NCBI GenBank assembly: GCA_937934305.1
Contig: CALHAG010000002.1
Coordinates: 142,192 to 206,191, forward strand
Source: Candidatus Caldarchaeum subterraneum
Lineage (GTDB): Archaea > Thermoproteota > Nitrososphaeria_A > Caldarchaeales > Caldarchaeaceae
Direction of reading: 5' to 3'
Length of the DNA stretch: 64,000 nt
The notes beneath the pieces were generated by a model. The model saw nothing but the letters and a program-made list of their open reading frames with translations. It was not told where the DNA came from and did not search any database. The stretch's first letter is position 1. Each line of letters begins with the position of its first letter. Made by a program: the position numbers and the translations under genes. Below, one piece after another: positions 42,064 to 59,787 of the stretch.

Positions 42064-42674
42064 TCGGCGACCACCTCAGGCCTTGACCAACCCAGCTCCG
42101 GAAGCTCCATGACCTCAACCATCCTAGCGTCTACGCTTTCGCCGGGCAGGAAGGAGAGGACCTTGGCGTAGAGGTTGCCCAGCATATCTCTAGAAAGGGA
42201 CACCACCTCTCCGACGTAGTAGGTTCTGCCGCCGCATTCAAGCTTTTTACCAGCGACGCTACATGGCCCAACCAAGGATTCATGGCTGTATGGATCCCTC
42301 CAGAAGACAACGGGCCTACCGGTTTCCCCACATCCAAGGCATGAATAGTCTTTCTGCAGAGATGTTTCTAGAACGGCTCCGCACTCTCTACATTTCATGG
42401 CCCAGAGACAGGGTAGGCGCCGGAAGATGCTGGGTTTTCCGCGGAAATGCTTAACCAGGTCATATTCCCTGCTGTTGATGAGAAGCCATAAAGAGCCTTC
42501 CCTGTCGATGTAGACGCGTTCCAGCTCGGGTAACGGAAGCCCGAGAGCGGGCTGGATACCGTGGGACGCCAGCTTCTCCCTGATTTTCTTATTGTGGACA
42601 ATAAAGTCCACGTACCGGTCTCTGTATATCCATGACGTGAAAGGCCCCACCATGAACCTGCCCAGCCTAGCCAT
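42060..42674 (-). CDS. Zinc-ribbon hypothetical protein, coupled to hel308
   Basis: CRECGAVL...CLGCGETG. Its stop overlaps the hel308 start. Confidence 0.35.
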   Translation of the reverse strand: MARLGRFMVGPFTSWIYRDRYVDFIVHNKKIREKLASHGIQPALGLPLPELERVYIDREGSLWLLINSREYDLVKHFRGKPSIFRRLPCLWAMKCRECGAVLETSLQKDYSCLGCGETGRPVVFWRDPYSHESLVGPCSVAGKKLECGGRTYYVGEVVSLSRDMLGNLYAKVLSFLPGESVDARMVEVMELPELGWSRPEVVAE

Positions 42675-44901
42675 CGCCGCTCACCTCTTCCGACAAATTC
42701 TGGTCAGCAAGCGTCTCCGAGAAGACCGCCACACGCTCGGCCAAGCTGATTAACAGCTCCGCCGCATCAGCCATCCTCTTCCTATCCTCCTCGGAGACCG
42801 GCTGGCCGTCCGCAACCTGTTTAGAGAGCCTCTTCGCCTCAATGTTTGCAGCATATAGTTTCCTAGCCTCTTCCTCAGATATCTTGAGAACACCTCTTTC
42901 AGCCGCTTTGGCTGCGAGGTCGGGTAAATGCCCCTTCTCCTCTCCGAGAAGCTTCTTGAGAGAGGTGACGGCGGCCTTGTACGCTATGCCAACAGCGGCT
43001 AGGCTATCGCCTCTGAGCAGGTGTTTCCTAGCCCTCGCCACAAGCGTGTCAACATCATGTATCTCGCGGGGTTTGCGCTGCTGCGTGTAGGAGCCGAGGC
43101 CCGTCTGCAAAGCGATGGCGGGCTGCGCCGAGCTCCCGCCAGCCTCGTCACTTGTTTTCTCCTCCCTCGACTTCGACTCCCAGTCCTTGAGGGCCTGCTC
43201 GCCCAGAGCCGTTAAACCCAGCACGCCGCCGGGGTCCACCATGAGGTATTGTTTCTCGAGAAGCATTTTCAAAGCCTTCCCAGCCTCGGGAAACAATTGG
43301 GAGACCGAGTCCGAGGTGGGTGACTGCAGCCTCTTCACCGTTCGAAGCAGGCTGTAGCAATGCTCGGCATAGTCTGCGAAATCGGCGTAGAGAAGCGTGT
43401 CGCGATAGGCTCCGAGCAGCTCCTCCCTTAGAAGCGATATTTTTCTCTCGGCCTCGGCTTCTAGAGCCTTCAGGTCGCATACAGGGGACTGGAGAAGCTC
43501 TCCCTCGAAAAGGTAGCTGCGGCCATCCGGTGTAGCCCGTGTATAGACCAGGGCGTATCCAACCGGTATAGACGAGGGGTTGACCTCGACACCTATTCTC
43601 TCCGACAGCTCCCTTCTAACATGGGACGGGCCTCTCGTGACAATATATGTCCCAGCCAAGTCGAGAAGCTCGGGAGCAAGCAACCCGGTGCTGCTGGATA
43701 TCACGAATCCTCCACAGCCCCTAAGCCTCTCCACCGTCTTCAGAGTCCTCAGCCACACATGCCTAGCATCGTATGGCAGAAGCTGCAGCTCCGGTAGGCC
43801 CAGCTCAGCGCTGTCAAAAACTATGACACAGCCTTGGAAGAGGCGGGGAGCATCGTAGAGCAGGTACATGCCTATGAAGAGCTGGCTGGCTTGGCTGAGG
43901 TTTCGAAGGTCTATCACCAACTGCTGCCAATCGCCTGCGAAGAGCTTGTCAGGCTCCGGATAGCCCTCTCCAAAGAACTGCGTCAACATGCCGAGTGCGT
44001 CTTTCAGCCTAGCCGAGCCCGTGGGCCCATACTCGGCGACAAGCTTGTCTACGTCGTCGGGCAACACCCTTGAGCCTCTAAACTTCTCCAGAAACCGTAT
44101 CACCATCCCAGCCTCAGCCGTGTCAAGCCCAGCGGCCACGGCAAGGGGCACAGCGATGTTCTCGGCCCAGCGCCTCAGACCGAACTTGTCGGAGGAAGAG
44201 GGCTTGAGAACATTGATGGAGGTTTTTCCAAGCGGTACATAATGTGTCTTGGCATGTGATGCAGCCATGTATGGTGAGCCTATCACCACCACTCTCCGGC
44301 CAAGTTTCAGCATCGCGTCGACGAGAACCCGGGCGGCGGGTATCGAGGCTTCGCCGAACACTATTACGCCGCTGTCGAACGCCTGTCTGTATATACAGCC
44401 TCTCGAGCGGCCAAACCATCCACCGGGCCTAGACACTATGCATACATCAGCTTTCTTGGGGGAATCCTGTATAACCTGGCTACCCTGCTTAGACACCACA
44501 GGGGATGGTTTAGAGCCTTTCCCCACCGCTATGCTGCGTGTGGCTGTGACAGGGGCGCTTGTTTTTGTAAAGCTTTTCACAGCCAATAAGCCTGCCAAGC
44601 CGCCTATGAGGAAGGCTAGCAACATGCCTGCAGCGGGTCCAGCGATTAGAGAGGCTCCTGTTACAAGCAAAGCCGCCAGCGACAGCGCGGCGAACGGCGC
44701 AATGAATCTCCTGAAAAAGCCTGTAAATGTTCTGACGCCGGAGAAGATAACCCATCCCCCGGGCAGCAATATGGTGACGACAACCAGAAGCAGTAGGGCG
44801 ACTATGCCTATTAGCGCGAGCTGTGCGAGAATCGGCTGGACAACCATGAAGCCTAGGCCGCCAAGTATGAAGGCGAGGATATCTCTAGAATTCATGCCCA
44901 A
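42667..44901 (-). CDS. Membrane-anchored P-loop NTPase-like protein with a degenerate Walker A (putative inactive HerA/VirD4-like paralog)
   Basis: Three N-terminal TM helices. A P-loop-like VVVIGSPYMAASHAKT lacks the GK[ST] lysine context. Walker B-like is CVIVFDSAELG. 744 aa. Confidence 0.4.
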   Translation of the reverse strand: MGMNSRDILAFILGGLGFMVVQPILAQLALIGIVALLLLVVVTILLPGGWVIFSGVRTFTGFFRRFIAPFAALSLAALLVTGASLIAGPAAGMLLAFLIGGLAGLLAVKSFTKTSAPVTATRSIAVGKGSKPSPVVSKQGSQVIQDSPKKADVCIVSRPGGWFGRSRGCIYRQAFDSGVIVFGEASIPAARVLVDAMLKLGRRVVVIGSPYMAASHAKTHYVPLGKTSINVLKPSSSDKFGLRRWAENIAVPLAVAAGLDTAEAGMVIRFLEKFRGSRVLPDDVDKLVAEYGPTGSARLKDALGMLTQFFGEGYPEPDKLFAGDWQQLVIDLRNLSQASQLFIGMYLLYDAPRLFQGCVIVFDSAELGLPELQLLPYDARHVWLRTLKTVERLRGCGGFVISSSTGLLAPELLDLAGTYIVTRGPSHVRRELSERIGVEVNPSSIPVGYALVYTRATPDGRSYLFEGELLQSPVCDLKALEAEAERKISLLREELLGAYRDTLLYADFADYAEHCYSLLRTVKRLQSPTSDSVSQLFPEAGKALKMLLEKQYLMVDPGGVLGLTALGEQALKDWESKSREEKTSDEAGGSSAQPAIALQTGLGSYTQQRKPREIHDVDTLVARARKHLLRGDSLAAVGIAYKAAVTSLKKLLGEEKGHLPDLAAKAAERGVLKISEEEARKLYAANIEAKRLSKQVADGQPVSEEDRKRMADAAELLISLAERVAVFSETLADQNLSEEVSGDG

Positions 44902-45232
44902 TCCTCCTCGGCTCCCTCCTCTTTCTCCGCCTAGCTAGGGCAAGCATGCTGGCAAACAGGGTGGCTAAGGGCAAAGTGACCACGAGCATCGAAGGGTTGA
45001 CAACAGCCGTAGCCATCGCCGTGAAGACGATGATGTAGAAAACAGACTTGGCCGATAGAATCCCTTTGCCAACCTCGTCAGCACCCTGCTCTTCTCCATG
45101 TTTCCTCCGTGGAGGAGCTCTTGTCTGGGCTTCATGATAATCAGGCTCATATGCCGGCGGCTGCGATGCCATGCTCTCGTAAATCCTCTGGTTGATAATG
45201 TATTCATCCAAATAGCTGTCATCAGATGACAT
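44885..45232 (-). CDS. Small membrane protein, hypothetical
   Basis: 115 aa with one central TM (VFYIIVFTAMATAVV). Overlaps both neighbours by 11-17 nt. Confidence 0.3.
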   Translation of the reverse strand: MSSDDSYLDEYIINQRIYESMASQPPAYEPDYHEAQTRAPPRRKHGEEQGADEVGKGILSAKSVFYIIVFTAMATAVVNPSMLVVTLPLATLFASMLALARRRKRREPRRIGHEF

Positions 45233-47387
45233 ATTGCTTCATCTCCTCGAAATGCTTCAGCAATAGAATTCCGGGAATAGTCTTCTTATACCTCGTTCCA
45301 TCCATCCAAACTAGGCCATACTTGATGTAGTCATGAATGGAGGACTTGTCTTTCCAATTGCGGCAGAACCTGACAGCCACCGATGTGGGCAGTTTTCTAA
45401 GAATCTCGGCAGCCTCCTTGTTGATGGTTCTCTTTATCGCTAACTCTTTAGCGGCTATAACGTTGGACAGAAGCTCAAACTCCTCCGGGTCAAATTCTTG
45501 TGTATCGGTTTTTCTAGTCTCCTGCTTCTCTTCTACAGGTTCTTCTCCCGTGTTCGTTGCCTTGACTAAAGTCCTCTCCTTTGTCTCCTTTTCCTGTTTC
45601 TTCTTTTCAACATGTTTTCCGAGACAGCGACCATCGCTGGTCAGCACTCTGCCGCATTCGCTGCATGGCTTCGGCAGCCCGGGAGCCTTGTCTCCGCCAA
45701 GTTTCTCCCTCCGCATTTTGAAGATATAGCCATCCACGATGATTCTGGCCGGGTCTTGCCGGGACAGTGTCCTTATCCTCGCCGGCGTGACGAACCTGAT
45801 GTATGCCTCGCCTATCCCCAGCTCTGTTATCACGCGTCTGATGCTCTCGGGCGAGGTTTGGGAAAGAACCCACACATCCTCTGGAGAGGAGGTGTTGAAC
45901 ACGACCCACCGGTAGCAGGACTGTCTAATTCCGTCGGCTATGTCCGACAGCCTCTGCGTGACAAGAATCAACGCGACGGCGTAGCTTCTAGCGGTTCTGG
46001 CTATGTCTTCGAGCTTGCTACGGCTCCCCGAGTCCCTGCCGCCTCTGAGCTGGATAGGCTTGGTGACTAGGTACGCCTCGTCTATGACGACCACGACAGG
46101 CTTTTCTCTAGTGAAAGCCAGCGGCCCACGTTTCAGCATCATCTTGGCAAGCTTCCTAAGCAGGAACTCTAGGACTATTGCTCTGGTTTTCTCGTTCACA
46201 TCAGCCATGTTGAGCACCACGAGAGAGGGGCCATCCGCCGCAAACAATGGGCTATAGAGGTCGGAGACGCCGTAGGCATCTGTTTTAAAGACCGTCTTCA
46301 GGTCATACATCTTGTCGTAGATGCCTTCTATGGCGTCTTTGGTCTGCGGCCCATACTTCAGCTTCCCCTCCATTATTTCCCTCTCCACCTTCTCCAGTTT
46401 ATCCATCAGGTTTTCATACGTCAACTCGATGTTGGCGTGGCGCAGCTCGGCGTAGGCCACTCTGATGAAGTGAGCCTGCTTAGAGCCAACCTCCTCCAGA
46501 ACAGATATGCTGTCCATGAGGTCCTCAACCATCTGAGGCTCCGTCTCCCCCTCAAGGGCCTTGAACGGGTCTATGCCCGTGTGTGAGACCATGTAAATAG
46601 CCGCTCTCCCGTCGTCCACGTATCCGAGCTTGTAAAACGCTTCGGTGAAGTCGCCTTTGACATCGAAGAGCAAAACCTTGTAGCTCCCCATTAGCTGGGT
46701 GACTAGGCTAAACACTGTAGTTGTCTTGCCCGCCCCGCTCGCGCCAGCTATTATCATGTGCGGGTTGAACTCCCGCTCGCTCACGACCGGGGAATACCTC
46801 AGCTCTATGTTTCCGGGAATGGTGCGTACGAGGATATGGGTCTTGAGCTGAGCATCTTCATTGGTTTCGCGGTAGGGCTGCTCAACCATTCTCACGCTTT
46901 TGGAGACGGTGCCGAGGACGGCTGAGGACTCCTTGTTACCGGTTTCGACGTCTCTTCTAACCCTTCTGATTGTTGATGCCTGCTCAGCCACCGCGACTAT
47001 CGACGCTATGGTCGTCACCATCGGTATCGAGGGGAGGTTGGCTAGGACGATTGTGAAGGCTTTATGATATTCGAGCTGGGCGAAAACGGCTGCGATAACT
47101 AGGTCCAGCACAAGGCTTAGTATGAAGTAGTAGGCGCCCAAGCTCTTGGCGGCATACGCTATCGGAGCCGCGATGGAGGCGGGTCCCGAGCCTATCGGCC
47201 CCCAAGCCATCAAAGCCAGCATGATGGCGAAAAACACTCTGCCGACAATGAGTGCGCGAAGGCTCTTGACGGGCTTTATCTCAGGCGCGTTGCCTTCCCT
47301 AACCATGTAAAGGAATATGAAGGCTAGGATGTAGTTTAGGGCAAGGGCCGATGCTCCTAGGAAAGTTATCTCCATGTCACCATACAC
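45222..47387 (-). CDS. Membrane-anchored HerA/FtsK/VirD4-like P-loop ATPase with a C-terminal zinc ribbon
   Basis: N-terminal ~150-aa polytopic region. Walker A is MIIAGASGAGKTTTVFSL. Walker B is PVVVVIDEAYLV. C-terminal CSECGRVLTSDGRC. Confidence 0.6.
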   Translation of the reverse strand: MYGDMEITFLGASALALNYILAFIFLYMVREGNAPEIKPVKSLRALIVGRVFFAIMLALMAWGPIGSGPASIAAPIAYAAKSLGAYYFILSLVLDLVIAAVFAQLEYHKAFTIVLANLPSIPMVTTIASIVAVAEQASTIRRVRRDVETGNKESSAVLGTVSKSVRMVEQPYRETNEDAQLKTHILVRTIPGNIELRYSPVVSEREFNPHMIIAGASGAGKTTTVFSLVTQLMGSYKVLLFDVKGDFTEAFYKLGYVDDGRAAIYMVSHTGIDPFKALEGETEPQMVEDLMDSISVLEEVGSKQAHFIRVAYAELRHANIELTYENLMDKLEKVEREIMEGKLKYGPQTKDAIEGIYDKMYDLKTVFKTDAYGVSDLYSPLFAADGPSLVVLNMADVNEKTRAIVLEFLLRKLAKMMLKRGPLAFTREKPVVVVIDEAYLVTKPIQLRGGRDSGSRSKLEDIARTARSYAVALILVTQRLSDIADGIRQSCYRWVVFNTSSPEDVWVLSQTSPESIRRVITELGIGEAYIRFVTPARIRTLSRQDPARIIVDGYIFKMRREKLGGDKAPGLPKPCSECGRVLTSDGRCLGKHVEKKKQEKETKERTLVKATNTGEEPVEEKQETRKTDTQEFDPEEFELLSNVIAAKELAIKRTINKEAAEILRKLPTSVAVRFCRNWKDKSSIHDYIKYGLVWMDGTRYKKTIPGILLLKHFEEMKQYVI

Positions 47388-47901
47388 CTCTTCTCAAGAC
47401 ATACACCATGCTGCTGACCATTGCGCTGAAGCTGGTCACGGCGACGAAGGTCCACAGCCTGCTCTCCACGTTGAAAACCCGCTCCACAACGTCTCCATGG
47501 CTGGTCTCCATCCTCACTATGAACGTGGCCCTCGGGTAGGAGAATATGCGCCAAGAGGTTTCAGCGACACCTGATTCATCTGTGGAAACCTCTATAGATT
47601 CTCTAAACTCGGCATACTGTATCCTCAGCCTAGTGTTCGCAACGGGTCTGCAGACCGATGCATCCATTATTGTTGTCCCGTTGTCGAGAACCTTCCAGCA
47701 CCTCCCCCCGCTTCCAACCAGGTCTTCCACAACCAGTATCCGGAAAGTATATGGCCATAGGAAGTGAGCCTCCTGGGTTCTGTCGAAGAAGATTACGACC
47801 TTGGTGGGGTTGAAGCCGTCGGTGTTTTCATCGCCTATAGCCAGTGGCGCGGCCAGAGCCAGCAGCGCCAGAGACAATAGAAGAAGGTTAAGCGGTTTCA
47901 T
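47377..47901 (-). CDS. Secreted hypothetical protein
   Basis: Signal MKPLNLLLLSLALLALAAPLAIG. 174 aa. Embedded between the two ATPase genes. Confidence 0.35.
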   Translation of the reverse strand: MKPLNLLLLSLALLALAAPLAIGDENTDGFNPTKVVIFFDRTQEAHFLWPYTFRILVVEDLVGSGGRCWKVLDNGTTIMDASVCRPVANTRLRIQYAEFRESIEVSTDESGVAETSWRIFSYPRATFIVRMETSHGDVVERVFNVESRLWTFVAVTSFSAMVSSMVYVLRRGVW

Positions 47902-50683: not shown

Positions 50684-50687
50684 GCTT

Positions 50688-51089
50688 TCACCTCCTCATC
50701 TTCACAACCAGCGCCACGGCGAAGGTGGACACGCCCACGATTAACGCGGCGAGCAGATGACCACTTATAGCCAGAACACCTGTGAACACGCCGCCGATTA
50801 TCAGGTATTTGCGCAGGCCAGCGTCGTAGGACACTTTCCTAGACGAGGGGCGCCTGCCACCTTTCTTGAGCAGGTCGACGGGCCTGCCGTTTTCATCCCT
50901 GATGTATGGGTCGTCGGGGTCTCTCGGCGTAGCCTCCTCCTCTCTTCGCCAGCCTCTCCTCAAGCCAAACTCATCTTCCTCACTCATTTTTCTCCTCACC
51001 ATTTTTCTTGTTTGAATTCTCCCCAGCCTGCCTCCATTCGGGAGGCATCTGGGACTCGGTATCGCCCACATCATTCTCCTTTTTTCCAA
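50688..51089 (-). CDS. Small C-terminally TM-anchored protein (VirB3-like position immediately upstream of the VirB4-like gene)
   Basis: C-terminal TM YLIIGGVFTGVLAISGHLLAALIVGVSTFAVALVV. The likely real start is the internal MSEEDEF, because the annotated N-terminus overlaps the upstream gene. Confidence 0.3.
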   Translation of the reverse strand: MEKRRMMWAIPSPRCLPNGGRLGRIQTRKMVRRKMSEEDEFGLRRGWRREEEATPRDPDDPYIRDENGRPVDLLKKGGRRPSSRKVSYDAGLRKYLIIGGVFTGVLAISGHLLAALIVGVSTFAVALVVKMRR

Positions 51090-54000
51090 AGTCTCCCCAA
51101 CTCATGTGTTCCGAAACATCCTGCGGCTCGGCGCTGGGCTCGCTTCCCGCCGTCCACCACGGCACCTTGAACTCGCCATCTGATTCGGAGCCAACCCGTT
51201 CAACAAAAGAGGCAGCGTCCTCCCTCTTTCCCAGAGAGTCGGCTACGCTGAAGAACTCGTCCAGAGTCCTCGGGTCATCGGCACCGGAGAAAATCTTCTC
51301 CCTGAGGCTATCCATGTACTGCTGCTGGGCCTCGGCCACGCCGGGGTCCGGCTGATAATCCGCTGGAGAGACATCGTAGCCCTTCGCCGGAGCAGCATGG
51401 GACATGCGCGCCCCCATCTCCTCCATCACTTTCATGAACTCGTCCAGCTCGTTCTTCGACACCTCGTAGGTCCCCATGTTCGTCTCCACGACAACCCTGT
51501 CGCCGCCGTCCACGAGGTTGGTGAGCCTGAAGTCAGGGTCATACGGGTTGGCGACAATCCACATATACTCGCCGATTCTCTCCTCGAATCTTCTAAAGTC
51601 CTCGGGCGTGCCGTAGGACCTGTGCATGTCGTAGGCGTGTTTGACGTCCGATGGGTCTCCTCCATAGTCATGCTGCTTTATGACGGGCTGCTCAGCCGTC
51701 CCCGCTGGGTGAAGTATGCCGGTCCTGAACTCAGGAACATAGGCAGGCGTCACCAACGGCCTAACGCCCTCGGGGGTGAAGGGGTTGTTATCCGCGGCGA
51801 GGCTGAACGCCGCCGGAGCCCTTATCTTTCCGTCGAGCTGGTCAGATATGTATCCGAAGAAGGCGCCGGCGCTTACATGGCCTGAGGCTGACAGCCTCGT
51901 GCTCATCCAGTCAGCAGCCTTCCCAACCGTTGGGGAGAGGATGCCCTCGACAAGGGATGCGCCAACAACGTGTTTGCCGAAGTCGCTTTTCGCGAAGCTG
52001 TCAACCAAGGCAATTCTCTCCGACATTGTTGAGGACTTGAGCATGTTTGCGAAGCCTTGCGCCACCTTCTCTGGACGCGCCTCAACCATCCTGCTCTGCT
52101 TAGCCCATCCTATCAAGAGGTCAGCCTTACGCATGGCCTCCTCCTGTGAATAGCCTTTCATCATGAGCCTCTCCGCATAGGCGTTTCTCACGGCTTCGGC
52201 GAACTTCGGGTCGCTTCTGACAGCGGACATGGCGACATTGGCGGTGTAGCTCCTTGTCATCACTCCGAGAACCAGCCTCTCAGCCCTTGCGACAATGCCT
52301 CTCTTGCCCTCAAGCTCCCGCTTCTTGTCCAGCATCCGCTCCATGACGCCGGAGAACCTTGTCCTCTCAGCGAATTTTTCCCACGACGCCCTGTTCCTCT
52401 CCCTCGCCTCTGTGGCGGCTTTGAGAAGCTGGTTCTCCTGCCTCCTCTGAATCCATCTAGCGATAAAGTCCACCCGGGACATCCGCTTAACCGCTGAAGC
52501 ATATGTTGTGAAGAACTTGGCCGCATGAGTGATGTTGCCAACCTTTGAGAAGAAGAAATGCATCATCACGCTTTGACCACCTACAAGCGACTGGAAAGTA
52601 TCTATGATGAGGGCTAGAAGACCAACAGCGATGCCTATGGCGAACGCCTGCCCTATCAATTCAGAGAGAGGCTTCAGAATAGCGACGCTCCCCGACCCAA
52701 CCATCAGGATGGGCAGAGTAGATATCGGAATATTGCTTCCAGCATACGCTCCATACGCGTTTCTGTAAAACGTCTCCGAAATGGTTCTGGCGAGAGGAAT
52801 GTTGGTGTCGAACACTGTGGCGTTAGTCTCCCAGTTCTGCTCCCTGTATGTGAGGAGGGCTGCGTTTATTCTCCGTGTAGCCTCATGACTAGGCCCATCC
52901 CTGTAAAGCCCCTGCCTAAAGTTCTGGTACCTAGCCCACTCGCCTCTAAAATTGTCCACGGAAATGCCTAGAATATTGTCGGGCACGTAGCCTCCCGACG
53001 CGAGCTGCCGAGTATACTCCCTGTCCTCGTCGAACTTGTGCCACTCTACCGGAGGCAGGTAAGGCATGGACTCGGAGGCCGTGAAGATGACCCTGAAGCT
53101 GTAGCTTAGGCTGTCGGGGACCTCTGGATAGCCGTCGTAGCTATCCCTTATGATTGTCTGGTTAGCTGTCACGAAGACTTTCTTCTGCTGGGTTGGGGCA
53201 TTCAATTCAAGAGGCTCGTTGCGGTCGATTGCTTCTACGCTCTGCGGCAGAGTGTAGGGGCCGTATCCATCTATGAAGCCCGCCGCCATAATCTCCTCGA
53301 AGCTTGAATCCAGAACGGTATGGTTCCATGTAGGTGGGTTTGATGTGGACGGCCTAAACTCGTAACTCCATGATGGTGTGCCGAGGCGTCTCTCGCATAC
53401 GTCGGTGCCGTTGACCGGGCCTCCATATATCGGGTCTATATGCCAGCAGACATCATAGTCATCCATGTTGAGGTAGACGAAGTATACGCTCTTGTTTCCG
53501 CTATAGTCGCCGCGGGTGTAGTAGTGCCAGCGCCAACAAGTCTCGGTGGTGGAGGAGTTGCCATCGGTCTCGCATGTGTATGTCTCGTTAACCGCCCACC
53601 TAAGCTCCCTCACCTTGGGCAGGGTTATACCATATATGTTCAGGTCCTCTTTCTTGGTTCCCCATGGCTGCTCCGTGAACCAGACGAAGGTTGTGTTCCT
53701 GTTGGCGGCCACCATCCAGAGACTTGTCTCGTTGTACAGGCTCGTGGACCTCCAGAAACTTTCCCACCTCTCTTTCCAAATCAGGTACGGGTTGCAAGAG
53801 ATTGAGCCATCGTCCCATCCGCCGAAGAAGAACTCCCGGTCAGGGTCAGTTCCGGTGCAGGCCATGGCGCTAGGGTCAGGGTCCTCGGGAACCTTGTGAA
53901 CTGTTATGTTGCGTGGAGAAGTGTCGTAGAGGGTCACCCACATGTTCAGGAACCAGACGCGCCTCGCGTAGGTGCCGTTAATCAGGGACATGCGGTAGCC

Positions 54001-55077
54001 CTCATCATAGGCGTTGTAGTATCCTCCGCCACCTGTGTCAAATATGGTCTTCTGAGGAGTCTTCAAAACATCTCTCATTATTTCTATTATTTGTTCGCAG
54101 GTCAGGTTGCCTCCGCGGGGCAGGTTAGCGCATACCTTGTCCCTATCTATCTCAGGAGGCTGAGTAAACTCGGCTGTTAGAAACGGGTACCACAATGTGT
54201 CGTTCTCCCTGTCATAAACCGTGTACCTCACGCCTCCCTCCATTTCGCCAACGCTCCTGCTGGCTATGCTAAGCTTCTGGATATCAGCGGCCTCCATGAT
54301 GCTGTTCTCAGCATAGCCCGGCGGAGGAGAAGCGGCTACAATGGCTACTGGGAGAGCGATGGTGAGGGTTGCACCGAGAACCATGAAGGTTTTGCCGACG
54401 CGCCTAGCGAAGGGTATCGCGAAAAGTACCAGGCCTATGGTGAATATGGCTGGGGCTACGAACTTAGCGAAGGACACGAATGCCACAACCCCCTCCATGA
54501 AGAGGACCACGCCGCTAAGCACCTTCGCTATAAACTGCAGCATGGCGAAGACGGCTCCGAAGATGAAGCTCGCTATCGCTGAGAGAAGTATTCCCACGCC
54601 CGATATCCAAGCCGGCAGAAGAGCCAGCATCATGATTGACTGGAGGGTGCCGAGAGCTATCGCCGCGTATGAAACCGCCTTCATCCACTCGAAAGCCATG
54701 TCCCTGCTGGCGCGAGCGGATGCGATGGCGTCGTCGAAGGTGGCTGTAAGCGGGAAACTGTATCCAAGGGAATGTAGGTAGCTTGAGACAATTGGTTTGA
54801 TGAGAGCTATGCTTCCTACAACGGCTAGAACCGCCACGGTTGACCAGCTATGCATCATCGCTGTGAAGCCCCAGCGCCTGAACTGGAGAATCGGGAGCCT
54901 GAACAATGCTATGCCAGAGGCATACACCAGCGCAGCCAAGCCGAAAACAATCTCAGCCTCCATAGCCATCACCCAAACCCGAGCGAAGCAGCCACCCCGC
55001 CTATGCCCTTTGAAAGGGCCGCGGCCGCAGCCGTCACTATCCCCCATCCCGCCAGCGAGCCTAACGCGAACCTCCAC
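50980..55077 (-). CDS. Giant (1365 aa) membrane protein: N-terminal polytopic domain (VirB6/CedA-like?) plus ~1000-aa extracellular W/Y/N-rich domain
   Basis: ~7 TM helices in the first ~330 aa, then ASPPPGYAENS, followed by many NxT/S sequons (NDTL, NGTY, NITV, NETS, NRTT, NGTD...). The likely real start is the internal MAMEAEIVFGL. Confidence 0.5.
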   Translation of the reverse strand: MEVRVRLAGGMGDSDGCGRGPFKGHRRGGCFARVWVMAMEAEIVFGLAALVYASGIALFRLPILQFRRWGFTAMMHSWSTVAVLAVVGSIALIKPIVSSYLHSLGYSFPLTATFDDAIASARASRDMAFEWMKAVSYAAIALGTLQSIMMLALLPAWISGVGILLSAIASFIFGAVFAMLQFIAKVLSGVVLFMEGVVAFVSFAKFVAPAIFTIGLVLFAIPFARRVGKTFMVLGATLTIALPVAIVAASPPPGYAENSIMEAADIQKLSIASRSVGEMEGGVRYTVYDRENDTLWYPFLTAEFTQPPEIDRDKVCANLPRGGNLTCEQIIEIMRDVLKTPQKTIFDTGGGGYYNAYDEGYRMSLINGTYARRVWFLNMWVTLYDTSPRNITVHKVPEDPDPSAMACTGTDPDREFFFGGWDDGSISCNPYLIWKERWESFWRSTSLYNETSLWMVAANRNTTFVWFTEQPWGTKKEDLNIYGITLPKVRELRWAVNETYTCETDGNSSTTETCWRWHYYTRGDYSGNKSVYFVYLNMDDYDVCWHIDPIYGGPVNGTDVCERRLGTPSWSYEFRPSTSNPPTWNHTVLDSSFEEIMAAGFIDGYGPYTLPQSVEAIDRNEPLELNAPTQQKKVFVTANQTIIRDSYDGYPEVPDSLSYSFRVIFTASESMPYLPPVEWHKFDEDREYTRQLASGGYVPDNILGISVDNFRGEWARYQNFRQGLYRDGPSHEATRRINAALLTYREQNWETNATVFDTNIPLARTISETFYRNAYGAYAGSNIPISTLPILMVGSGSVAILKPLSELIGQAFAIGIAVGLLALIIDTFQSLVGGQSVMMHFFFSKVGNITHAAKFFTTYASAVKRMSRVDFIARWIQRRQENQLLKAATEARERNRASWEKFAERTRFSGVMERMLDKKRELEGKRGIVARAERLVLGVMTRSYTANVAMSAVRSDPKFAEAVRNAYAERLMMKGYSQEEAMRKADLLIGWAKQSRMVEARPEKVAQGFANMLKSSTMSERIALVDSFAKSDFGKHVVGASLVEGILSPTVGKAADWMSTRLSASGHVSAGAFFGYISDQLDGKIRAPAAFSLAADNNPFTPEGVRPLVTPAYVPEFRTGILHPAGTAEQPVIKQHDYGGDPSDVKHAYDMHRSYGTPEDFRRFEERIGEYMWIVANPYDPDFRLTNLVDGGDRVVVETNMGTYEVSKNELDEFMKVMEEMGARMSHAAPAKGYDVSPADYQPDPGVAEAQQQYMDSLREKIFSGADDPRTLDEFFSVADSLGKREDAASFVERVGSESDGEFKVPWWTAGSEPSAEPQDVSEHMSWGDFGKKENDVGDTESQMPPEWRQAGENSNKKNGEEKNE

Positions 55078-55811
55078 ATCTTCATCAAAGTGTTGTTTTC
55101 AGGGTTGAGGAGCCACGCAACCAAGTCGAAGACGTTCTGCGGATTGGGTAGAACAAAGTCAGCCAGACTACATGCGTTTGCCTCTCCGGCTCCGCATGCG
55201 AGCAACCCTATAGCGGGTATGTAGGGCCCTGCGGCCACGAAAGCTATTGAAGCCGCTATAAACCATGCGCCTATTCCCCTGAGCTTTCCTCCGGGGACAG
55301 CCAGCAGGGCCACGCCAAGGGGAGCGAGGACCACTGCTAGCGAGCCGAAGACCGTTAAAAACACCATCAAGGTGAAGCTTGTTATAAGCGTCACGGAGAG
55401 GGCTAGACCCGGCAGAGAGGCGATTACGCTAAAGATGTTGGCTATCGCCGGCCCCACTATAGGTATCAGAGCGGTCCCCATTCCTATCCCCGTAATGATG
55501 GCCAGCAGCGAGAAGGCCTTATTGCCTACAGTCAAATACAGCGTTGGAAGGTCAGAACACTCAATCCTCGGAGCGGCTATAGAAGATGAAACAATATTGA
55601 TTAAACCATTGATAGAATTGGCTACGCCTAGGACGGCTACGACGCCGGCAGCCACGAGGCTGTATGAGATTAGGTGACCGCCCCATGAGCTGCCGCTTCC
55701 GCCCGGCAAAGGGGTTCTATGCAGGGCTAAGCCAACCGCATAGCCCAGGCTGACAAGGGCCCAGGCGACGGCGGCGTATTCACCCAACCCCGCGTAGGTA
55801 CAGCTAATCAT
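54969..55811 (-). CDS. Polytopic membrane protein (CedA/VirB6-like candidate)
   Basis: 280 aa with ~7 hydrophobic helices. Sits between the pilin candidate and the giant membrane protein. Confidence 0.4.
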   Translation of the reverse strand: MISCTYAGLGEYAAVAWALVSLGYAVGLALHRTPLPGGSGSSWGGHLISYSLVAAGVVAVLGVANSINGLINIVSSSIAAPRIECSDLPTLYLTVGNKAFSLLAIITGIGMGTALIPIVGPAIANIFSVIASLPGLALSVTLITSFTLMVFLTVFGSLAVVLAPLGVALLAVPGGKLRGIGAWFIAASIAFVAAGPYIPAIGLLACGAGEANACSLADFVLPNPQNVFDLVAWLLNPENNTLMKMWRFALGSLAGWGIVTAAAAALSKGIGGVAASLGFG

Positions 55812-55848
55812 CTAAACCGCCTCAAAAAAAGGAGGGGGGATGTGGTGT

Positions 55849-56373
55849 TCAACTTGGCACGTCCCAGGGACCGCCTATAGGTATAGACGAGCCCTGCCCT
55901 GACGCTGCCACAGCCACGTCGGCTGCGAATTTTATGATGTAGAGGCCCAGCGCGGTCAGCCCGCCGACTATCAGCGCGCTGTCAATCAGTTGTCCGGCGC
56001 CCTCCTTGGTCCTGTGAGACCCTAGAGGCAGGAACTTTATCGCTATCCCCGCGCCCAGCAGAGCCATCGCAATCAGCAGGAGAAGCTGCTGAAACCCTTG
56101 CAACGGCTCCCTAATCAAGTTTGCAACCCCTCCCGCGCCCGCTGCGTGAACCGTCTGAGACGCCAGAGCCGTCGCCGCCAGTTGCACAGCCGTCAATGCC
56201 GCAGGCCTGAGCCGTGCCAACACCTTTCCCATTCTCCAAGCCTTGTGGGTTTTCATGGTCGCTTCGAGACCGTCTCCGAACATGATAATAGATAAACTTT
56301 TGGTGGCAAACCTGAACGAGAACTGAACGAAAGTTGAACGTAAGTTGAACGAGGAGAAACTATTTTCGGTCAA
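55849..56373 (-). CDS. VirB2/TrbC/CedA1-like pilin candidate; the probable true start is the ATG at 56256
   Basis: From the internal Met: MKTHKAWRMGKVLARLRPAALTAVQLAATALA (signal-like), then two hydrophobic helices separated by a short charged loop (GSHRTKEGAG). The annotated N-terminal 39 aa read through the promoter/repeat region. Confidence 0.4.
   Translation of the reverse strand: MTENSFSSFNLRSTFVQFSFRFATKSLSIIMFGDGLEATMKTHKAWRMGKVLARLRPAALTAVQLAATALASQTVHAAGAGGVANLIREPLQGFQQLLLLIAMALLGAGIAIKFLPLGSHRTKEGAGQLIDSALIVGGLTALGLYIIKFAADVAVAASGQGSSIPIGGPWDVPS
56282..56300 (-). promoter_or_regulatory. Candidate TATA-like promoter for the 15-gene minus-strand array
   Basis: The minus strand reads AAAAGTTTATCTATTATCATG ~27-45 nt upstream of the ATG at 56256. 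It lies immediately next to the TGAACG array. Confidence 0.3.
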
Positions 56374-56934: not shown

Positions 56935-56989
56935 CCATCAGTTTTGAGACAGTCCCAGACCAAGCCCTTAACCGAGGGGTTTGGTCCCA

Positions 56990-59773: not shown

Positions 59774-59787
59774 GAGGGTGTGCAGGC

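What the first reader, a model, noticed from the sequence alone, without database searches (positions are those of the whole stretch)
42667..56373. Ced/Ted-like (conjugation-related) DNA-transfer apparatus with three TM-anchored P-loop NTPases and a giant membrane protein
Nine tightly packed minus-strand genes encode a VirB2/TrbC-like two-helix pilin candidate, a ~7-TM CedA/VirB6-like protein and a 1365-aa polytopic protein with a ~1000-aa glycosylation-sequon-rich ectodomain. They also encode a VirB3-like small TM protein and a VirB4/TrbE/CedB-like ATPase (Walker A in the C-terminal half).

A secreted protein follows, then a second HerA/FtsK/VirD4-like ATPase with a C-terminal zinc ribbon, a small TM protein, and a paralog with a degenerate P-loop.

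This gene content resembles the archaeal DNA-import systems (Ced of Sulfolobales, Ted of Pyrobaculum) and bacterial T4SS cores. However, the second ATPase, the pseudo-ATPase and the giant ectodomain protein are not part of the minimal described sets. This may be a distinct variant of archaeal DNA-exchange machinery.
Basis: partly seen in the sequence, partly recalled or inferred. Interest (0 to 1): 0.8.

Follow-up and report, generated by a model that had tools for sequence, protein, structure and literature searches.

The report
Archaeal conjugation-like DNA-transfer and recombination operon
A hot-spring archaeon (Caldarchaeales, formerly Aigarchaeota) carries a conserved operon for a conjugation-type DNA-transfer machine joined to DNA-recombination genes; it is related to the known Ced and Ted DNA-exchange systems but has an architecture I did not find described.

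Summary
The nine minus-strand genes are real and conserved in order in at least 10 other loci.

**Components tested**
- The 931-aa ATPase is a full-length VirB4. Its AlphaFold model matches R388 TrwK over about 940 columns (E=4e-18).
- The 280-aa protein is CedA/VirB6-like.
- The pilin candidate has a weak but specific match to the Aeropyrum CedA1 pilin.
- The N-terminal membrane domain of the giant protein is a second CedA-like paralogue (hhalign E=8e-7).
- The 721-aa protein is an active HerA/VirD4-like ATPase.
- The 744-aa protein has a HerA/TrwB fold but has lost Walker A and the catalytic glutamate in every family member.

- The ectodomain is about 530 aa, not about 1000 aa.
- "VirB3-like" is unsupported.
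- Second ATPases are already described for Ced (CedD) and for Ted loci.
- The operon does not stop at 42667. It continues through a Cys-rich protein, a Hel308-like helicase, ParB, two RadB-like proteins and an AAA+ ATPase to 36713.

**Distribution and open question**
- Pilin through Hel308 and a RadB-like gene recurs in the same order in a Thermosphaera MAG.
- The host is Ca. Caldarchaeum.
- The locus lies in a 64-kb island-like stretch with no integrase, relaxase or tRNA.
- Chromosomal exchange versus ICE self-transfer is unresolved.

Verdict: a new variant of a known kind.

The parts
56289..56351 (-). Promoter-like module of the operon: a TATA-like box (TTTGCCACCAAAAGTTTATCTA on the minus strand) about 33-44 nt upstream of the pilin ATG, preceded by four CGTTCA hexamers at 11-nt spacing
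   Evidence: There are 7 matches to CGTTCA-N5-CGTTCA, all within 56313-56910, against 0.18 expected by chance. The same motif lies upstream of the pilin gene in L001. Promoter function is inferred.
55849..56256 (-). Pilin candidate (135 aa): Sec-type signal peptide (...TVHA|AG), then two hydrophobic helices joined by a basic loop (LPLGSHRTKEGAG), with an invariant C-terminal GPWxxP motif
   Evidence: Alignment A2. The top PDB hit of its profile is 8dfu_B, the A. pernix CedA1 pilin (E=0.46). hhalign against a CedA1 fragment gives E=2.1e-4 and against the N-terminus of the 7-TM protein E=3.2e-4. The Thermosphaera ortholog matches at E=5.8e-10. No hit to TedC (8DFT) appeared.
54969..55811 (-). 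CedA/TedA/VirB6-like polytopic membrane protein (280 aa, about 7 TM)
   Evidence: NCBIfam CedA 8.5e-8, CedE 4.3e-7 and CedA1 3.2e-4, all far below the curated cut-offs. The N-terminal residues 9-69 of its profile hit the CedA1 pilin 8dfu_B at E=3.1e-5, as published for CedA. Hydropathy.
50980..54969 (-). Giant membrane protein (1329 aa): N-terminal CedA/VirB6-like 6-TM domain, a sequon- and Cys-rich ectodomain of about 530 aa, 2 TM segments, and a C-terminal region of about 530 aa that is probably cytoplasmic
   Evidence: hhalign of A7 residues 5-209 against A3 residues 12-197: probability 91.6%, E=8.4e-7. Topology and sequons. All 19 homologs are 'hypothetical' proteins. No Pfam, NCBIfam or PDB hit. 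The Thermosphaera ortholog matches at E=1.4e-13.
50688..50987 (-). Small tail-anchored protein (99 aa): charged N-terminal region plus a C-terminal hydrophobic segment; function unknown
   Evidence: Alignment A8 and hydropathy. No family hit. Only its position directly upstream of VirB4 resembles VirB3.
47888..50683 (-). Full-length VirB4-type ATPase (931 aa) with an N-terminal TM hairpin (1-54) and an internal hydrophobic helical hairpin (about 232-282); Walker A GSPGTGKST, Walker B VIIDEGH
   Evidence: Pfam DUF87 and AAA_10. NCBIfam CedB 1.5e-19 and VirB4-like CD1110 1.6e-9. AlphaFold2 model with pLDDT 79.6. Foldseek top hits are TrwK/VirB4 of R388 (8rtd_O E=4.2e-18, about 940 aligned columns), then the VirB4 C-terminal domain 4ag5 (TM-score on target 0.75), then DndH and HerA.
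47377..47901 (-). Surface-anchored protein (174 aa): N-terminal signal or TM segment, extracellular domain with 2 Cys and 1 sequon, C-terminal TM anchor
   Evidence: Hydropathy. Conserved in all loci at 28-76% identity. No family hit.
45222..47387 (-). TM-anchored (4 TM) active HerA/VirD4-like ATPase (721 aa); Walker A GASGAGKTT, Walker B VVIDEAY; Cys cluster at 575-588
   Evidence: Pfam DUF87 5e-15, HerA_C and TrwB_AAD_bind 3.4e-6. NCBIfam HerA_antiphage 1.4e-16, CedB 1.6e-10, VirB4 1.2e-8 and CedD 6.6e-5. hhalign against the VirB4 family gives E=6.6e-15. Motif conservation.
44885..45232 (-). Small membrane protein (115 aa) with a C-terminal hydrophobic stretch that may form a TM hairpin
   Evidence: Hydropathy. 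Conserved in most loci that cover this position. No family hit.
42667..44901 (-). TM-anchored (about 4 TM) pseudo-ATPase (742-744 aa) with a HerA/FtsK/TrwB fold and helical C-terminal domains
   Evidence: AlphaFold2 model with pLDDT 78.3. Foldseek: Sso HerA 4d2i E=2.4e-8, DndH-C, TrwB coupling protein about 5e-6, VirB4 C-terminal domain. The P-loop position reads G-E-A-S-I-P and the Walker B position reads F-D-S-A-E in all 26 family members, so no Lys, no Ser/Thr and no catalytic Glu. Sequence profiles against the active paralogue are not significant.
42060..42674 (-). Cys-rich (two CxxC pairs) 204-aa soluble protein; its start overlaps the end of the pseudo-ATPase gene by 8 nt
   Evidence: Conserved at 39-75% identity in L001, L003, L006 and L012-L014. 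No family hit.
40021..42063 (-). Hel308-family DNA helicase paralogue (680 aa)
   Evidence: Pfam DEAD, Helicase_C, Helicase_dom4_arc and HHH_5. NCBIfam PRK02362 658 bits (cut-off 887) and Hel308 524 bits (cut-off 1200). Syntenic in L001, L003, L006, L012-L014 and in Thermosphaera L015 at 46% identity.
39008..40138 (-). ParB N-terminal-domain protein
   Evidence: Pfam ParB_N 5e-12. Present in L001, L003 and L006 but absent from the L012/L014 group.
38035..39006 (-). RadB/KaiC-like RecA-superfamily ATPase (323 aa)
   Evidence: NCBIfam RadB 2.7e-26 (92.8 bits, cut-off 172). Pfam AAA_25 and KaiC ATPase. Syntenic in L001, L003 and L012-L014. In L015 a RecA-family gene follows Hel308 in the same position, but it matched the second RadB-like protein (37506-38138), not this one.
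37506..38138 (-). Second, shorter RadB-like protein
   Evidence: NCBIfam RadB 2.4e-10. Conserved in L001, L012 and L014. The partial RecA-family gene after Hel308 in L015 matches it at 40% identity over 60 aa.
36713..37522 (-). AAA+ ATPase (MCM/RuvB-like P-loop domain), last gene of the tight array; a 413-nt gap follows
   Evidence: Pfam MCM 6.7e-12 and AAA. Coordinates. Conservation elsewhere was not seen, because the fetched loci end before this point.
59788..61216 (+). Divergently placed, TM-anchored CedD/TraD-like ATPase split into two ORFs (59788-60252 and 60137-61216)
   Evidence: NCBIfam CedD 3.4e-8 for the Walker A part and 4.4e-8 for the C-terminal part, plus SXT_TraD 3e-6. The split occurs at the same place in the independent assembly L009 and, as an in-frame stop, in L003.
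56411..56932 (+). Two further copies of the CGTTCA-iteron plus TATA module (56411-56481 and 56862-56932), facing the plus strand
   Evidence: Their targets are unknown.

Best explanation
This is a T4SS-derived, conjugation-type DNA-translocation machine of the same kind as the archaeal Ced and Ted systems. It is encoded as one long operon in a Ca. Caldarchaeum (Caldarchaeales, formerly Aigarchaeota) genome.

**Shown by tool results**
- A signal-peptide-bearing, two-helix pilin related to CedA1.
- Two CedA/VirB6-like membrane proteins, one of them giant with a glycosylatable ectodomain.
- A full-length membrane-anchored VirB4.
- A membrane-anchored active HerA/VirD4-like ATPase and a conserved catalytically dead paralogue.
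- Directly appended genes for a Hel308-like helicase, a ParB-like protein, RadB-like proteins and an AAA+ ATPase.

**Inferred mechanism**
- The pilin is cleaved by signal peptidase and polymerised by VirB4 on a platform of CedA-like proteins, forming a lipid-containing conjugative-type pilus or channel.
- The giant paralogue presents its ectodomain for cell-cell contact or partner recognition. Its large cytoplasmic tail may dock the ATPases.
- The HerA/VirD4-like hexamer, possibly mixed with or regulated by the dead paralogue, pumps DNA through the channel.
- Hel308 and the RadB-like proteins process the transferred DNA and feed it into homologous recombination.

I judge the most likely biological role to be intercellular exchange of chromosomal or island DNA coupled to recombination, that is, a Ced/Ted-like function. 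The direction of transfer is unknown.
For: **Component identities**
- VirB4.
- CedA-like 7-TM protein.
- Giant protein as a CedA paralogue.
- Pilin related to CedA1 and to the N-terminus of the 7-TM protein.
- Active HerA/T4CP-like ATPase.
- Pseudo-ATPase.

**Operon structure**
- Fifteen genes from 56256 to 36713 overlap or nearly abut.

**Coupling to recombination genes**
- Hel308-like and RadB-like genes are syntenic in every locus that extends far enough: L001, L003, L006 and L012-L014.
- The same order, pilin through Hel308 and a RecA-family (RadB-like) gene, is kept in a Thermosphaera (Desulfurococcales) MAG. There VirB4 is only 33% identical.

**Against self-transfer functions**
- No integrase, relaxase, Rep or transposase was found among about 50 ORFs in the 64-kb window, and no tRNA.

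**Chromosomal setting**
- The L003 copy lies inside a 702-kb contig.

**Literature parallel**
- Ted loci likewise carry HerA-like and Rad50 genes, which was taken as a link to recombination (PMC9905601).
- Ced needs a second, VirD4-like ATPase (CedD) and a CedA paralogue (CedE) (PMC11823120, PMC11868833).

**Possible partner pilus**
- A type IV pilus locus with a UpsF-like membrane protein lies 28 kb away in the same window.
Against: - No function was tested, and the direction and substrate of transfer are unknown.
- The pilin match to CedA1 is weak (E=0.46 against the PDB, about 2e-4 pairwise), and no pilin structure was predicted.
- The whole 64-kb window lacks housekeeping genes. It carries restriction-modification, GmrSD and ParB genes and many genes with no family match, so it looks like a genomic island.
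- Related loci have Cdc6-like genes and transposases nearby.
- Distribution is patchy. Only 3 species-representative genomes matched and only 22 cluster representatives reached E<=1e-30.
- A Desulfurococcaceae MAG protein at 52% identity suggests horizontal transfer.
- Thaumarchaeal ICEs have much the same gene content: VirB4, VirD4, VirB6, VirB2, ParB, TadC, FlaI and pilins (PMC6563490, PMC5797428).
Confidence: 0.5

Rival explanations
1. The genes are the conjugation module of an integrative conjugative element, or of an immobilised remnant of one. It would resemble the ICEs of thermophilic Nitrososphaerota and would transfer the island itself. Hel308, ParB and the RadB-like proteins would then replace the missing relaxase and DNA-processing functions.
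For: - The 64-kb window has no housekeeping genes.
- It contains restriction-modification and GmrSD defence genes, ParB, an MCM-like AAA+ ATPase, a type IV pilus locus and many genes with no family match.
- GC content is heterogeneous.
- Against another population (L010), identity jumps sharply from about 62% to 100% at about 61,290, marking an island or recombination boundary.
- Identity among orthologous loci is mosaic.
- Distribution is patchy and crosses orders.
- Cdc6-like and transposase genes lie next to related loci.
- Published thaumarchaeal ICEs carry VirB4, VirD4, VirB6, VirB2, ParB, TadC, FlaI and pilins, lack relaxases, and some lack an integrase (PMC6563490, PMC5797428).
Against: - No integrase, tRNA target, attachment-site repeat, Rep/primase or TFIIB was found in the window (and the Pfam scans). 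All published thaumarchaeal ICEs encode TFIIB.
- The tight and deeply conserved fusion with Hel308-like and RadB-like recombination genes is not part of the gene content those papers describe for ICEs.
- VirB4 identity falls roughly with host distance: 57% to Ca. Terraquivivens and 33% to Thermosphaera. This is compatible with old vertical inheritance.
- There is no close relative on any PLSDB plasmid (at most 29% identity over at most 34% of the query).
Confidence: 0.35
2. It is a T4SS-like machine that builds an adhesive or bundling pilus, or secretes proteins, with no role in DNA transfer.
For: - The giant ectodomain protein and the 174-aa surface protein suggest surface functions.
- Some bacterial T4SSs secrete proteins (general knowledge).
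Against: - Operonic coupling to a DNA helicase, ParB, RadB-like recombinase paralogues and DNA-pump-type ATPases.
- As far as I know, every archaeal relative characterised so far (Ced, Ted, Sulfolobus conjugative plasmids) is linked to DNA transfer (PMC9905601 and general knowledge).
Confidence: 0.07
3. It is a HerA-based anti-phage defence system.
For: - The two active ATPases give weak hits to the HerA_antiphage, DndH and mad8 models.
- Defence genes lie elsewhere in the window.
Against: - The hits cover only the generic ATPase domain and score far below the curated cut-offs.
- No Sir2, DUF4297, NurA or Dnd partner genes are present.
- The other seven proteins (pilin, CedA-like proteins and others) have no PADLOC hit.
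- The best fold match of the 931-aa protein is full-length VirB4.
Confidence: 0.02

Closest known systems
[quoted passage not shown]
   Same: - The 7-TM protein's best family hit is CedA.
- The pilin's only PDB-level similarity is to A. pernix CedA1.
- The N-terminus of the 7-TM protein resembles the pilin, as published for CedA and CedA1.
- The best NCBIfam hit of the main ATPase is CedB.
- There is a second CedA paralogue (compare CedE) and extra VirD4/HerA-like ATPases (compare CedD). The split upstream gene's best hit is CedD.
- A type IV pilus locus with a UpsF-like membrane protein lies nearby.
   Different: - All scores are 5-10 times below the NCBIfam equivalog cut-offs.
- The ATPase is a full-length VirB4 of 931 aa, not the 590-aa CedB carrying part of the N-terminal domain (PMC11868833).
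- The pilin has a cleavable signal peptide, whereas CedA1 is unprocessed.
- There is no CedA2.
- The second CedA paralogue is a 1329-aa giant.
- A pseudo-ATPase is present.
- All genes lie in one operon together with Hel308-like and RadB-like genes.
- The host is Caldarchaeales (class Nitrososphaeria).
Ted system (Thermoproteales exchange of DNA: TedA, TedB, TedC; Beltran et al. 2023, PMC9905601)
   Same: - It uses a full VirB4-type ATPase, which the paper calls VirB4-like.
- It has a signal-peptide-processed VirB2-like pilin.
- It has a 7-TM CedA/VirB6-like protein.
- Its loci commonly include a HerA-like ATPase and recombination genes such as Rad50.
   Different: - No similarity to the TedC pilin (PDB 8DFT) was detected at E<=10.
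- Gene order differs: in Ted loci VirB4 lies upstream of tedC and tedA.
- No giant paralogue, pseudo-ATPase or Hel308/RadB module is described for Ted.
- The recombination partners differ (Rad50 and ParA versus Hel308, RadB-like and ParB).
- The host order differs.
Integrative conjugative elements of Nitrososphaerota/Thaumarchaeota (for example Ca. Nitrosocaldus ICE-1 and ICE-2; PMC5797428, PMC6563490)
   Same: - The host phylum is the same.
- They carry a VirB4 and VirD4-like ATPase pair, VirB6-like and VirB2-like proteins, and ParB.
- Type IV pilus genes (TadC/UpsF-like, FlaI-like, pilins) occur in the same region.
- They have no relaxase and sit in an island-like context.
   Different: - No integrase, attachment sites, tRNA target, TFIIB or replication module was found here.
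- A Hel308 and RadB-like module is present here.
- No direct sequence comparison with those ICE proteins was possible.
Bacterial conjugative T4SS (R388 Trw, VirB/D4) and extended-VirB6 proteins
   Same: - The VirB4 fold includes the N-terminal domain.
- The TrwB-like fold of the pseudo-ATPase.
- A VirB2-like two-helix pilin with a signal peptide.
- A polytopic VirB6-class protein with a large hydrophilic extension, as in extended-VirB6 or TraG-type proteins (general knowledge).
   Different: - No VirB7-10 outer-membrane core, VirB8, VirB11, VirB1 or relaxase is present.
- The ATPases are themselves membrane-anchored.
- Sequence identity is only 10-13%.

Membership tests
T4SS (VirB4-based conjugation-type machinery) | VirB4 ATPase with both the characteristic N-terminal domain and the RecA-like C-terminal domain | tested here: met
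   The AlphaFold2 model (pLDDT 79.6) has full-length TrwK/VirB4 of R388 as top Foldseek hits (E=4e-18, about 940 aligned columns). The VirB4 C-terminal domain 4ag5 matches with a target TM-score of 0.75. Pfam DUF87 and AAA_10.
T4SS (VirB4-based conjugation-type machinery) | VirB6-class polytopic channel protein | tested here: met
   The 280-aa protein hits NCBIfam CedA and CedE. The giant protein's N-terminus is homologous to it. The link from CedA to VirB6 rests on PMC9905601 and was not retested here.
T4SS (VirB4-based conjugation-type machinery) | VirB2-like pilin (signal peptide plus a two-helix hairpin) | tested here: inconclusive
   Topology and signal peptide fit. The best PDB hit is the CedA1 pilin, but only at E=0.46; pairwise hhalign gives 2e-4. 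No structure was predicted.
T4SS (VirB4-based conjugation-type machinery) | Type IV coupling protein (VirD4/TrwB: N-terminal TM segments plus a nucleotide-binding domain) | tested here: inconclusive
   The 721-aa protein has 4 TM segments and an active P-loop domain. It scores better to HerA/DUF87 than to TrwB_AAD_bind (3.4e-6). The pseudo-ATPase model matches TrwB at about 5e-6 but HerA better. The split upstream gene hits CedD and TraD.
T4SS (VirB4-based conjugation-type machinery) | Relaxase | tested here: not met
   No relaxase family appeared among the ORFs of 120 aa or more in the window. Relaxases are also absent from archaeal conjugative plasmids and ICEs (PMC6563490).
T4SS (VirB4-based conjugation-type machinery) | VirB3 | tested here: inconclusive
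   The 99-aa protein upstream of VirB4 has no family hit and is tail-anchored. The N-terminal TM hairpin of the VirB4-like protein (residues 1-54) could be a fused VirB3 equivalent. This was not tested.
Ced system | CedA, CedA1, CedB, CedD and CedE orthology (NCBIfam equivalog cut-offs) | tested here: not met
   CedA scores 32 bits against a cut-off of 330. CedB scores 70 against 700. CedD scores 22-33 against 600. CedE scores 30 against 400. CedA1 scores 21 against 100. The proteins are homologous but not orthologous at that level.
Ced system | CedB-type ATPase of about 590 aa with a partial VirB4 N-terminal domain, complemented by CedD | tested here: not met
   The ATPase here is 931 aa and aligns to full-length VirB4.
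Ced system | Unprocessed CedA1 pilin, and CedA2 | tested here: not met
   The pilin has a Sec-type signal peptide with a conserved xHA cleavage-like site. No CedA2 hit was found.
Ced system | DNA-damage (UV) induction and DNA import | not testable with these tools
   This needs transcriptomics and genetics in a cultured host.
Ted system | TedC pilin homology | tested here: not met
   The pilin profile did not hit 8DFT (P. calidifontis TedC) at E<=10, whereas it did hit 8DFU.
Ted system | TedA (7-TM) and TedB (VirB4) orthology | not tested
   TedA and TedB sequences or profiles were not available in the tools. Only the kind of component matches.
Archaeal ICE (Nitrososphaerota type) | Integrase and flanking attachment-site direct repeats, usually at a tRNA gene | tested here: not met
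   There is no integrase Pfam hit, no tRNA, and no repeat of 15 nt or more linking the 61.3-kb boundary to the rest of the window. The element could extend beyond the window.
Archaeal ICE (Nitrososphaerota type) | TFIIB homologue next to ParB | tested here: not met
   ParB_N is present, but no TFIIB hit appeared in any scanned ORF.
Archaeal ICE (Nitrososphaerota type) | VirB4 and VirD4-like ATPase pair, VirB6, pilins, TadC and FlaI in an island | tested here: met

The most novel reading that the evidence does not exclude
This could be a third, distinct family of archaeal DNA-exchange systems, beside Ced and Ted. In it a T4SS-like transporter is hard-wired in one operon to its own recombination module: a Hel308 paralogue plus RadB-like proteins.

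Its distinctive parts would be a giant VirB6/CedA paralogue acting as a partner-recognition and docking subunit, and a conserved dead ATPase acting as a regulatory subunit of the DNA pump.

The mosaic allele pattern and the sharp 62%-to-100% identity boundary would then reflect diversifying, 'mating-type'-like replacement of the locus by the very recombination it promotes.

The system would be old in thermophilic Thermoproteota, being shared by Caldarchaeales and Thermosphaera.
Probability: 0.3. Interest if true: 0.8.

Novelty: new variant of a known kind. Interest (0 to 1): 0.62.

Why it matters
- According to PMC9905601 and my own reading, mechanistic knowledge of DNA exchange between archaeal cells rests mainly on two systems, Ced and Ted.
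- This locus would extend T4SS-derived DNA transfer to Caldarchaeales and, from the Thermosphaera locus, possibly to some Desulfurococcales.
- It shows a full VirB4, not the split CedB/CedD solution, combined with Ced-like membrane parts. That informs how Ced, Ted and conjugative T4SS diverged.
- It offers three concrete, testable additions: a giant VirB6/CedA paralogue, a conserved pseudo-ATPase of the HerA/TrwB fold, and a dedicated Hel308 and RadB-like module. The last would physically link DNA transport to recombination.
- It also offers a candidate regulatory motif: CGTTCA iterons at 11-nt spacing next to a TATA box.

Tried and rejected
- **Pilin against the PDB.** phmmer of the pilin ORF found nothing relevant. 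Only a profile reached CedA1, and only weakly.
- **744-aa versus 721-aa family.** BLASTP and two hhalign runs were not significant. Paralogy could be supported only at fold level.
- **Giant protein.** It has no Pfam, NCBIfam, PADLOC, PHROG or PDB sequence hit. Its ectodomain and C-terminal region remain unassigned.
- **Pilin against the giant's N-terminus.** hhalign was not significant.
- **Possible second pilin.** The two-helix C-terminus of ORF 57578-58165 (+) looked like a second pilin, but it has no support from hhalign or the PDB.
- **Genomic context beyond the window.** Look-ups of proteins near the window ends returned only short contigs.
- **Attachment sites.** A search for repeats linking the 61.3-kb boundary to the rest of the window found nothing of 15 nt or more.
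- **RNA families.** Rfam found nothing at gathering thresholds in the window, and only sub-threshold chance-level hits in 56380-59800.
- **Plasmids.** PLSDB holds only distant ATPase-domain matches.
- The afdb50 fold library was unavailable.
- **Defence-system and viral readings.** Both were rejected. Only generic ATPase-domain hits appeared.

Full report
**1. Observation**

The window region 42667-56373 holds nine minus-strand ORFs, as described. They overlap or nearly abut, with junctions from a 17-nt overlap to a 37-nt gap.

All nine are conserved in the same order in loci from other assemblies:
- L001, at 80% VirB4 identity.
- L003, at 83%, lying inside a 702-kb contig of a Nitrososphaerota MAG.
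- L004, a Ca. Caldarchaeum MAG, at 76%.
- L006, at 67%, and L012-L014, at 63%.
- L005, Ca. Terraquivivens tikiterensis, at 57%.
- L002, L007 and L008, at 52-57%.

The nearest database proteins are annotated Ca. Caldarchaeum sp., so the host is a Caldarchaeales (formerly Aigarchaeota) archaeon.

Ortholog alignments shift three start codons. The pilin starts at 56256 (135 aa), the giant protein at 54969 (1329 aa) and the small protein at 50987 (99 aa).

**2. Component identities**

*The 931-aa protein.*
- It carries Pfam DUF87 and AAA_10. Its best NCBIfam hits are CedB (1.5e-19) and VirB4-like conjugal ATPases, with no hit to any T2SSE or archaellum family.
- An AlphaFold2 model built from 28 homologs has a mean pLDDT of 79.6.
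- Its top Foldseek hits are 13 chains of full-length TrwK/VirB4 from the R388 T4SS (best E=4.2e-18, about 940 aligned columns). The VirB4 C-terminal domain of Thermoanaerobacter follows (target TM-score 0.75), and only then DndH and HerA.
- It is therefore a full VirB4, with both the N-terminal and C-terminal domains. It is not the shortened CedB type described in PMC11868833.
- It also has an N-terminal TM hairpin (residues 1-54) and an internal hydrophobic helical hairpin at about 232-282.

*The 280-aa protein.*
- It hits NCBIfam CedA (8.5e-8), CedE and CedA1, all far below the curated cut-offs.
- The N-terminal residues 9-69 of its profile hit PDB 8dfu_B at E=3.1e-5. PMC9905601 identifies 8DFU as the Aeropyrum pernix CedA1 pilus.
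- This reproduces the published relation that the CedA N-terminus resembles CedA1.

*The pilin candidate.*
- It has a Sec-type signal peptide with a conserved xHA site, two hydrophobic helices, a basic loop and an invariant C-terminal GPWxxP.
- The best PDB hit of its profile, among 177,635 sequences, is again CedA1, but only at E=0.46.
- Pairwise hhalign gives 2.1e-4 to CedA1 and 3.2e-4 to the N-terminus of the 7-TM protein.
- TedC (8DFT) was not hit.
- I regard the pilin assignment as probable, not proven.

*The giant protein.*
- It has no family or PDB hit, and all 19 of its homologs are 'hypothetical' proteins.
- Its N-terminal six-TM domain (residues 5-209) is homologous to the 7-TM CedA-like protein (hhalign probability 91.6%, E=8.4e-7).
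- It is therefore a second, hugely extended CedA/VirB6 paralogue. This is conceptually like CedE, the CedA paralogue of Sulfolobales (PMC11868833), and like extended-VirB6 proteins of bacteria (general knowledge).
- Hydropathy and sequon mapping give an ectodomain of about 530 aa holding 13 of its 14 sequons and all 8 Cys. Two TM segments follow, then a C-terminal region of about 530 aa that is probably cytoplasmic.

*The 721-aa protein.*
- It has four N-terminal TM segments and an intact HerA/FtsK-type ATPase domain (DUF87 5e-15, HerA_C, TrwB_AAD_bind, CedB 1.6e-10, CedD 6.6e-5).
- Its ATPase domain is homologous to that of the VirB4 family (hhalign E=6.6e-15).
- Walker A and Walker B are conserved throughout the family. 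The CxxC..C cluster is present only in close relatives.

*The 744-aa protein.*
- Sequence methods could not link it to the ATPases.
- Its AlphaFold2 model (pLDDT 78.3) matches Sulfolobus HerA (E=2.4e-8), DndH-C, the TrwB coupling protein (about 5e-6) and the VirB4 C-terminal domain.
- At the strand-loop-helix P-loop position every family member reads G-E-(A/E/G)-(S/A)..., with no Lys and no Ser/Thr. The Walker B position reads F-D-(S/G)-A-E.

*The three small proteins.*
- The 99-aa, 174-aa and 115-aa proteins are conserved membrane or surface proteins with no detectable homologs outside this system.
- 'VirB3-like' rests only on gene position.

**3. The system is larger than reported**

The tight gene array continues downstream of 42667:
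- a Cys-rich 204-aa protein;
- a Hel308-family helicase paralogue (PRK02362 658 bits, below its 887 cut-off);
- a ParB_N protein;
- a RadB-like ATPase (2.7e-26);
- a second, short RadB-like protein;
- an MCM/RuvB-like AAA+ ATPase ending at 36713, where a 413-nt gap follows.

The 204-aa protein, Hel308 and RadB-like genes are syntenic in every related locus that reaches that far. ParB is present in only some.

Upstream, on the other strand, lies a TM-anchored ATPase whose best hit is CedD (also TraD). It is split into two ORFs at the same point in the window, in an independent assembly (L009) and in L003, where the break is an in-frame stop.

Immediately upstream of the pilin gene is a TATA-like box preceded by four CGTTCA hexamers at 11-nt spacing. 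Two more copies of this module face the other way. There are 7 motif matches against 0.18 expected, and the motif is also present upstream of the L001 pilin gene.

**4. Breadth**

- A HMMER profile search of 1.84 billion cluster representatives found only 22 proteins at E<=1e-30. The whole family at 50% identity or more collapses to a single representative.
- More distant full-length relatives come from Caldarchaeales, Thermosphaera and Methanomethylicaceae MAGs.
- In the Thermosphaera MAG (L015) the order is the same: pilin, 7-TM protein, giant protein, small protein, VirB4, small protein, HerA-like protein, two large proteins, Hel308, RecA-family protein.
- Homology there was confirmed for the pilin (5.8e-10), the 7-TM protein (6.8e-11), the giant protein (1.4e-13), VirB4 (33% identity), the HerA-like ATPase (29% identity over about 320 aa), the pseudo-ATPase (26% over its N-terminal region), Hel308 (46%) and the second RadB-like protein (40% over 60 aa).
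- The Methanomethylicaceae locus (L016) is not syntenic beyond VirB4.
- The multi-gene architecture is therefore a conserved unit across at least two distant orders.

**5. Mobile element or domesticated system?**

*For an island or ICE.*
- The 64-kb window contains no housekeeping gene or tRNA.
- It holds a type IIG restriction-modification gene, GmrSD, many genes with no family match, a full type IV pilus locus and lower-GC segments.
- Related loci are flanked by Cdc6-like genes, a restriction enzyme and transposases.
- Identity to another population (L010) jumps from about 62% to 100% at about 61,290.
- Identity among orthologous loci is mosaic. Against L003, the giant protein is 87% and VirB4 83% identical, but the pilin is 46% and the 115-aa protein 36%.
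- Published thaumarchaeal ICEs have very similar content and lack relaxases (PMC6563490, PMC5797428).

*Against an ICE.*
- No integrase, attachment-site repeat, Rep or TFIIB was found (and the Pfam scans).
- The conserved block carries recombination genes, not replication or integration genes.
- VirB4 divergence roughly tracks host distance.
- There is no close plasmid relative.
- PMC9905601 used a similar association (HerA, Rad50) to argue that Ted serves chromosomal DNA exchange.

I favour a Ced/Ted-like exchange-plus-recombination function (0.5) over ICE self-transfer (0.35). The two readings are not exclusive. An integrated conjugative plasmid has been reported to drive high-frequency chromosomal gene transfer in Sulfolobus islandicus (PMC9899855, title and abstract only).

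**6. Mechanism (inferred)**

- Signal peptidase cleaves the pilin.
- VirB4, anchored by its own TM hairpins, assembles the pilin on a platform of CedA-like proteins.
- The giant paralogue exposes a glycosylated ectodomain for cell-cell contact or recognition. Its cytoplasmic tail may dock the ATPases.
- The active HerA/VirD4-like ATPase translocates DNA, possibly together with or regulated by the dead paralogue.
- Hel308 and the RadB-like proteins unwind the DNA and channel it into recombination.
- ParB may bind or mark the DNA.
- Only the component identities and the synteny are shown. Every functional step is inference.

**7. Comparison and novelty**

The system works like Ced and Ted, but it fails orthology-level membership in Ced:
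- all NCBIfam scores are 5-10 times below the cut-offs;
- the ATPase is a full VirB4, not a CedB-type protein;
- the pilin is processed;
- there is no CedA2.

It shows no detectable similarity to TedC, and its gene order differs from that of Ted loci.

My literature searches found no description of this system. The one mention was a VirB4 gene listed as unique to one Caldarchaeales clade in a pangenome analysis (PMC10547907).

I rate it a new variant of a known kind. The kind is archaeal T4SS-derived DNA-transfer machinery. The variant features are:
- a giant VirB6/CedA paralogue;
- a conserved pseudo-ATPase;
- up to four FtsK/HerA-superfamily proteins;
- an operonic Hel308 and RadB-like module.

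Noticed in passing
window 1096-14500 (-): A complete archaeal type IV pilus locus. It has a UpsF-like membrane protein (NCBIfam UpsF 1.7e-47, below cut-off), a FlaI/BasE-like ATPase, large unknown surface proteins, and at least five ORFs with class-III-signal-like N-termini. It could be the aggregation partner of the DNA-transfer system, as Ups is for Ced.
   Followed up: partly
window 16000-34000: A lower-GC stretch (0.45-0.50 against about 0.55) carrying a type IIG restriction-modification enzyme (17036-20182; N6_Mtase/Eco57I), a GmrSD-family nuclease (28328-29959), a CHRD protein and large CarboxypepD_reg-domain surface proteins. It looks like a defence and surface island inserted between the pilus locus and the transfer operon.
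   Followed up: partly
window 56289-56351 (-), 56411-56481 (+), 56862-56932 (+): Three copies of a module of about 70 nt: three or four CGTTCA hexamers at 11-nt spacing followed by TTTGCCACCAAAAATTTATA (TATA-like). One copy faces the pilin operon and two face the plus strand, where no clear gene follows. The motif also lies upstream of the pilin gene in L001. This is a candidate shared operator and promoter.
   Followed up: partly
window 57398-57507: Three copies of the palindrome TTGGATAGATTATCCAA at 22/44-nt spacing, just upstream of the plus-strand ORF 57578-58165. This is a possible transcription-factor binding array.
   Followed up: no
window 57578-58165 (+): An ORF whose C-terminal 85 aa or so form two hydrophobic helices joined by a short charged loop. 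It is 60% identical in L003. It looks like a second pilin or CedA2-like protein, but no homology could be shown.
   Followed up: yes
window 56960-57400 and 58400-59500: GC-rich stretches with only implausible ORFs. 57672-59498 is 78% identical at nucleotide level to L003, and 57009-57201 (inside the first stretch) is about 77% identical to L003. There is no Rfam match. They may be unannotated genes or structured RNA. An assembly break in L009 falls at 59035.
   Followed up: partly
window 59788-61216 (+); L003 2-1126 (-); L009: The CedD/TraD-like ATPase is interrupted right after VIVIDWKA. The break is a frameshift in the window and in L009, and an in-frame stop in L003. The conserved break point suggests a genuinely split ATPase or a recoding site, not a random pseudogene.
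   Followed up: partly
window about 61,290; L010: Nucleotide identity to a contig from another metagenome (JGI 3300038392) jumps from about 62% on the left to 100% on the right (61,300-63,480). This is a sharp recombination or island boundary just downstream of the CedD-like gene.
   Followed up: yes
L001, L003 versus window: Identity is mosaic within the operon. L003 is closer than L001 for the giant protein, VirB4 and Hel308. It is much more distant for the pilin, the 99-aa, 174-aa and 115-aa proteins, the HerA-like protein and ParB. This implies recombination between divergent alleles.
   Followed up: partly
L012 3-3820: In one 135-kb contig the giant gene is called as two pieces (331 and 894 aa). 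A DDE transposase and a restriction endonuclease lie downstream of the operon. A Cdc6/Orc1-like gene and a DUF8156 gene flank both L012 and L014.
   Followed up: no
window 34580-36299 (-): A ResA/DsbE-like thiol-disulfide oxidoreductase (with a weak hit to F-type TrbB) and an M50 peptidase lie just beyond the operon. They could serve the Cys-rich ectodomain or pilin processing. This is speculative.
   Followed up: no
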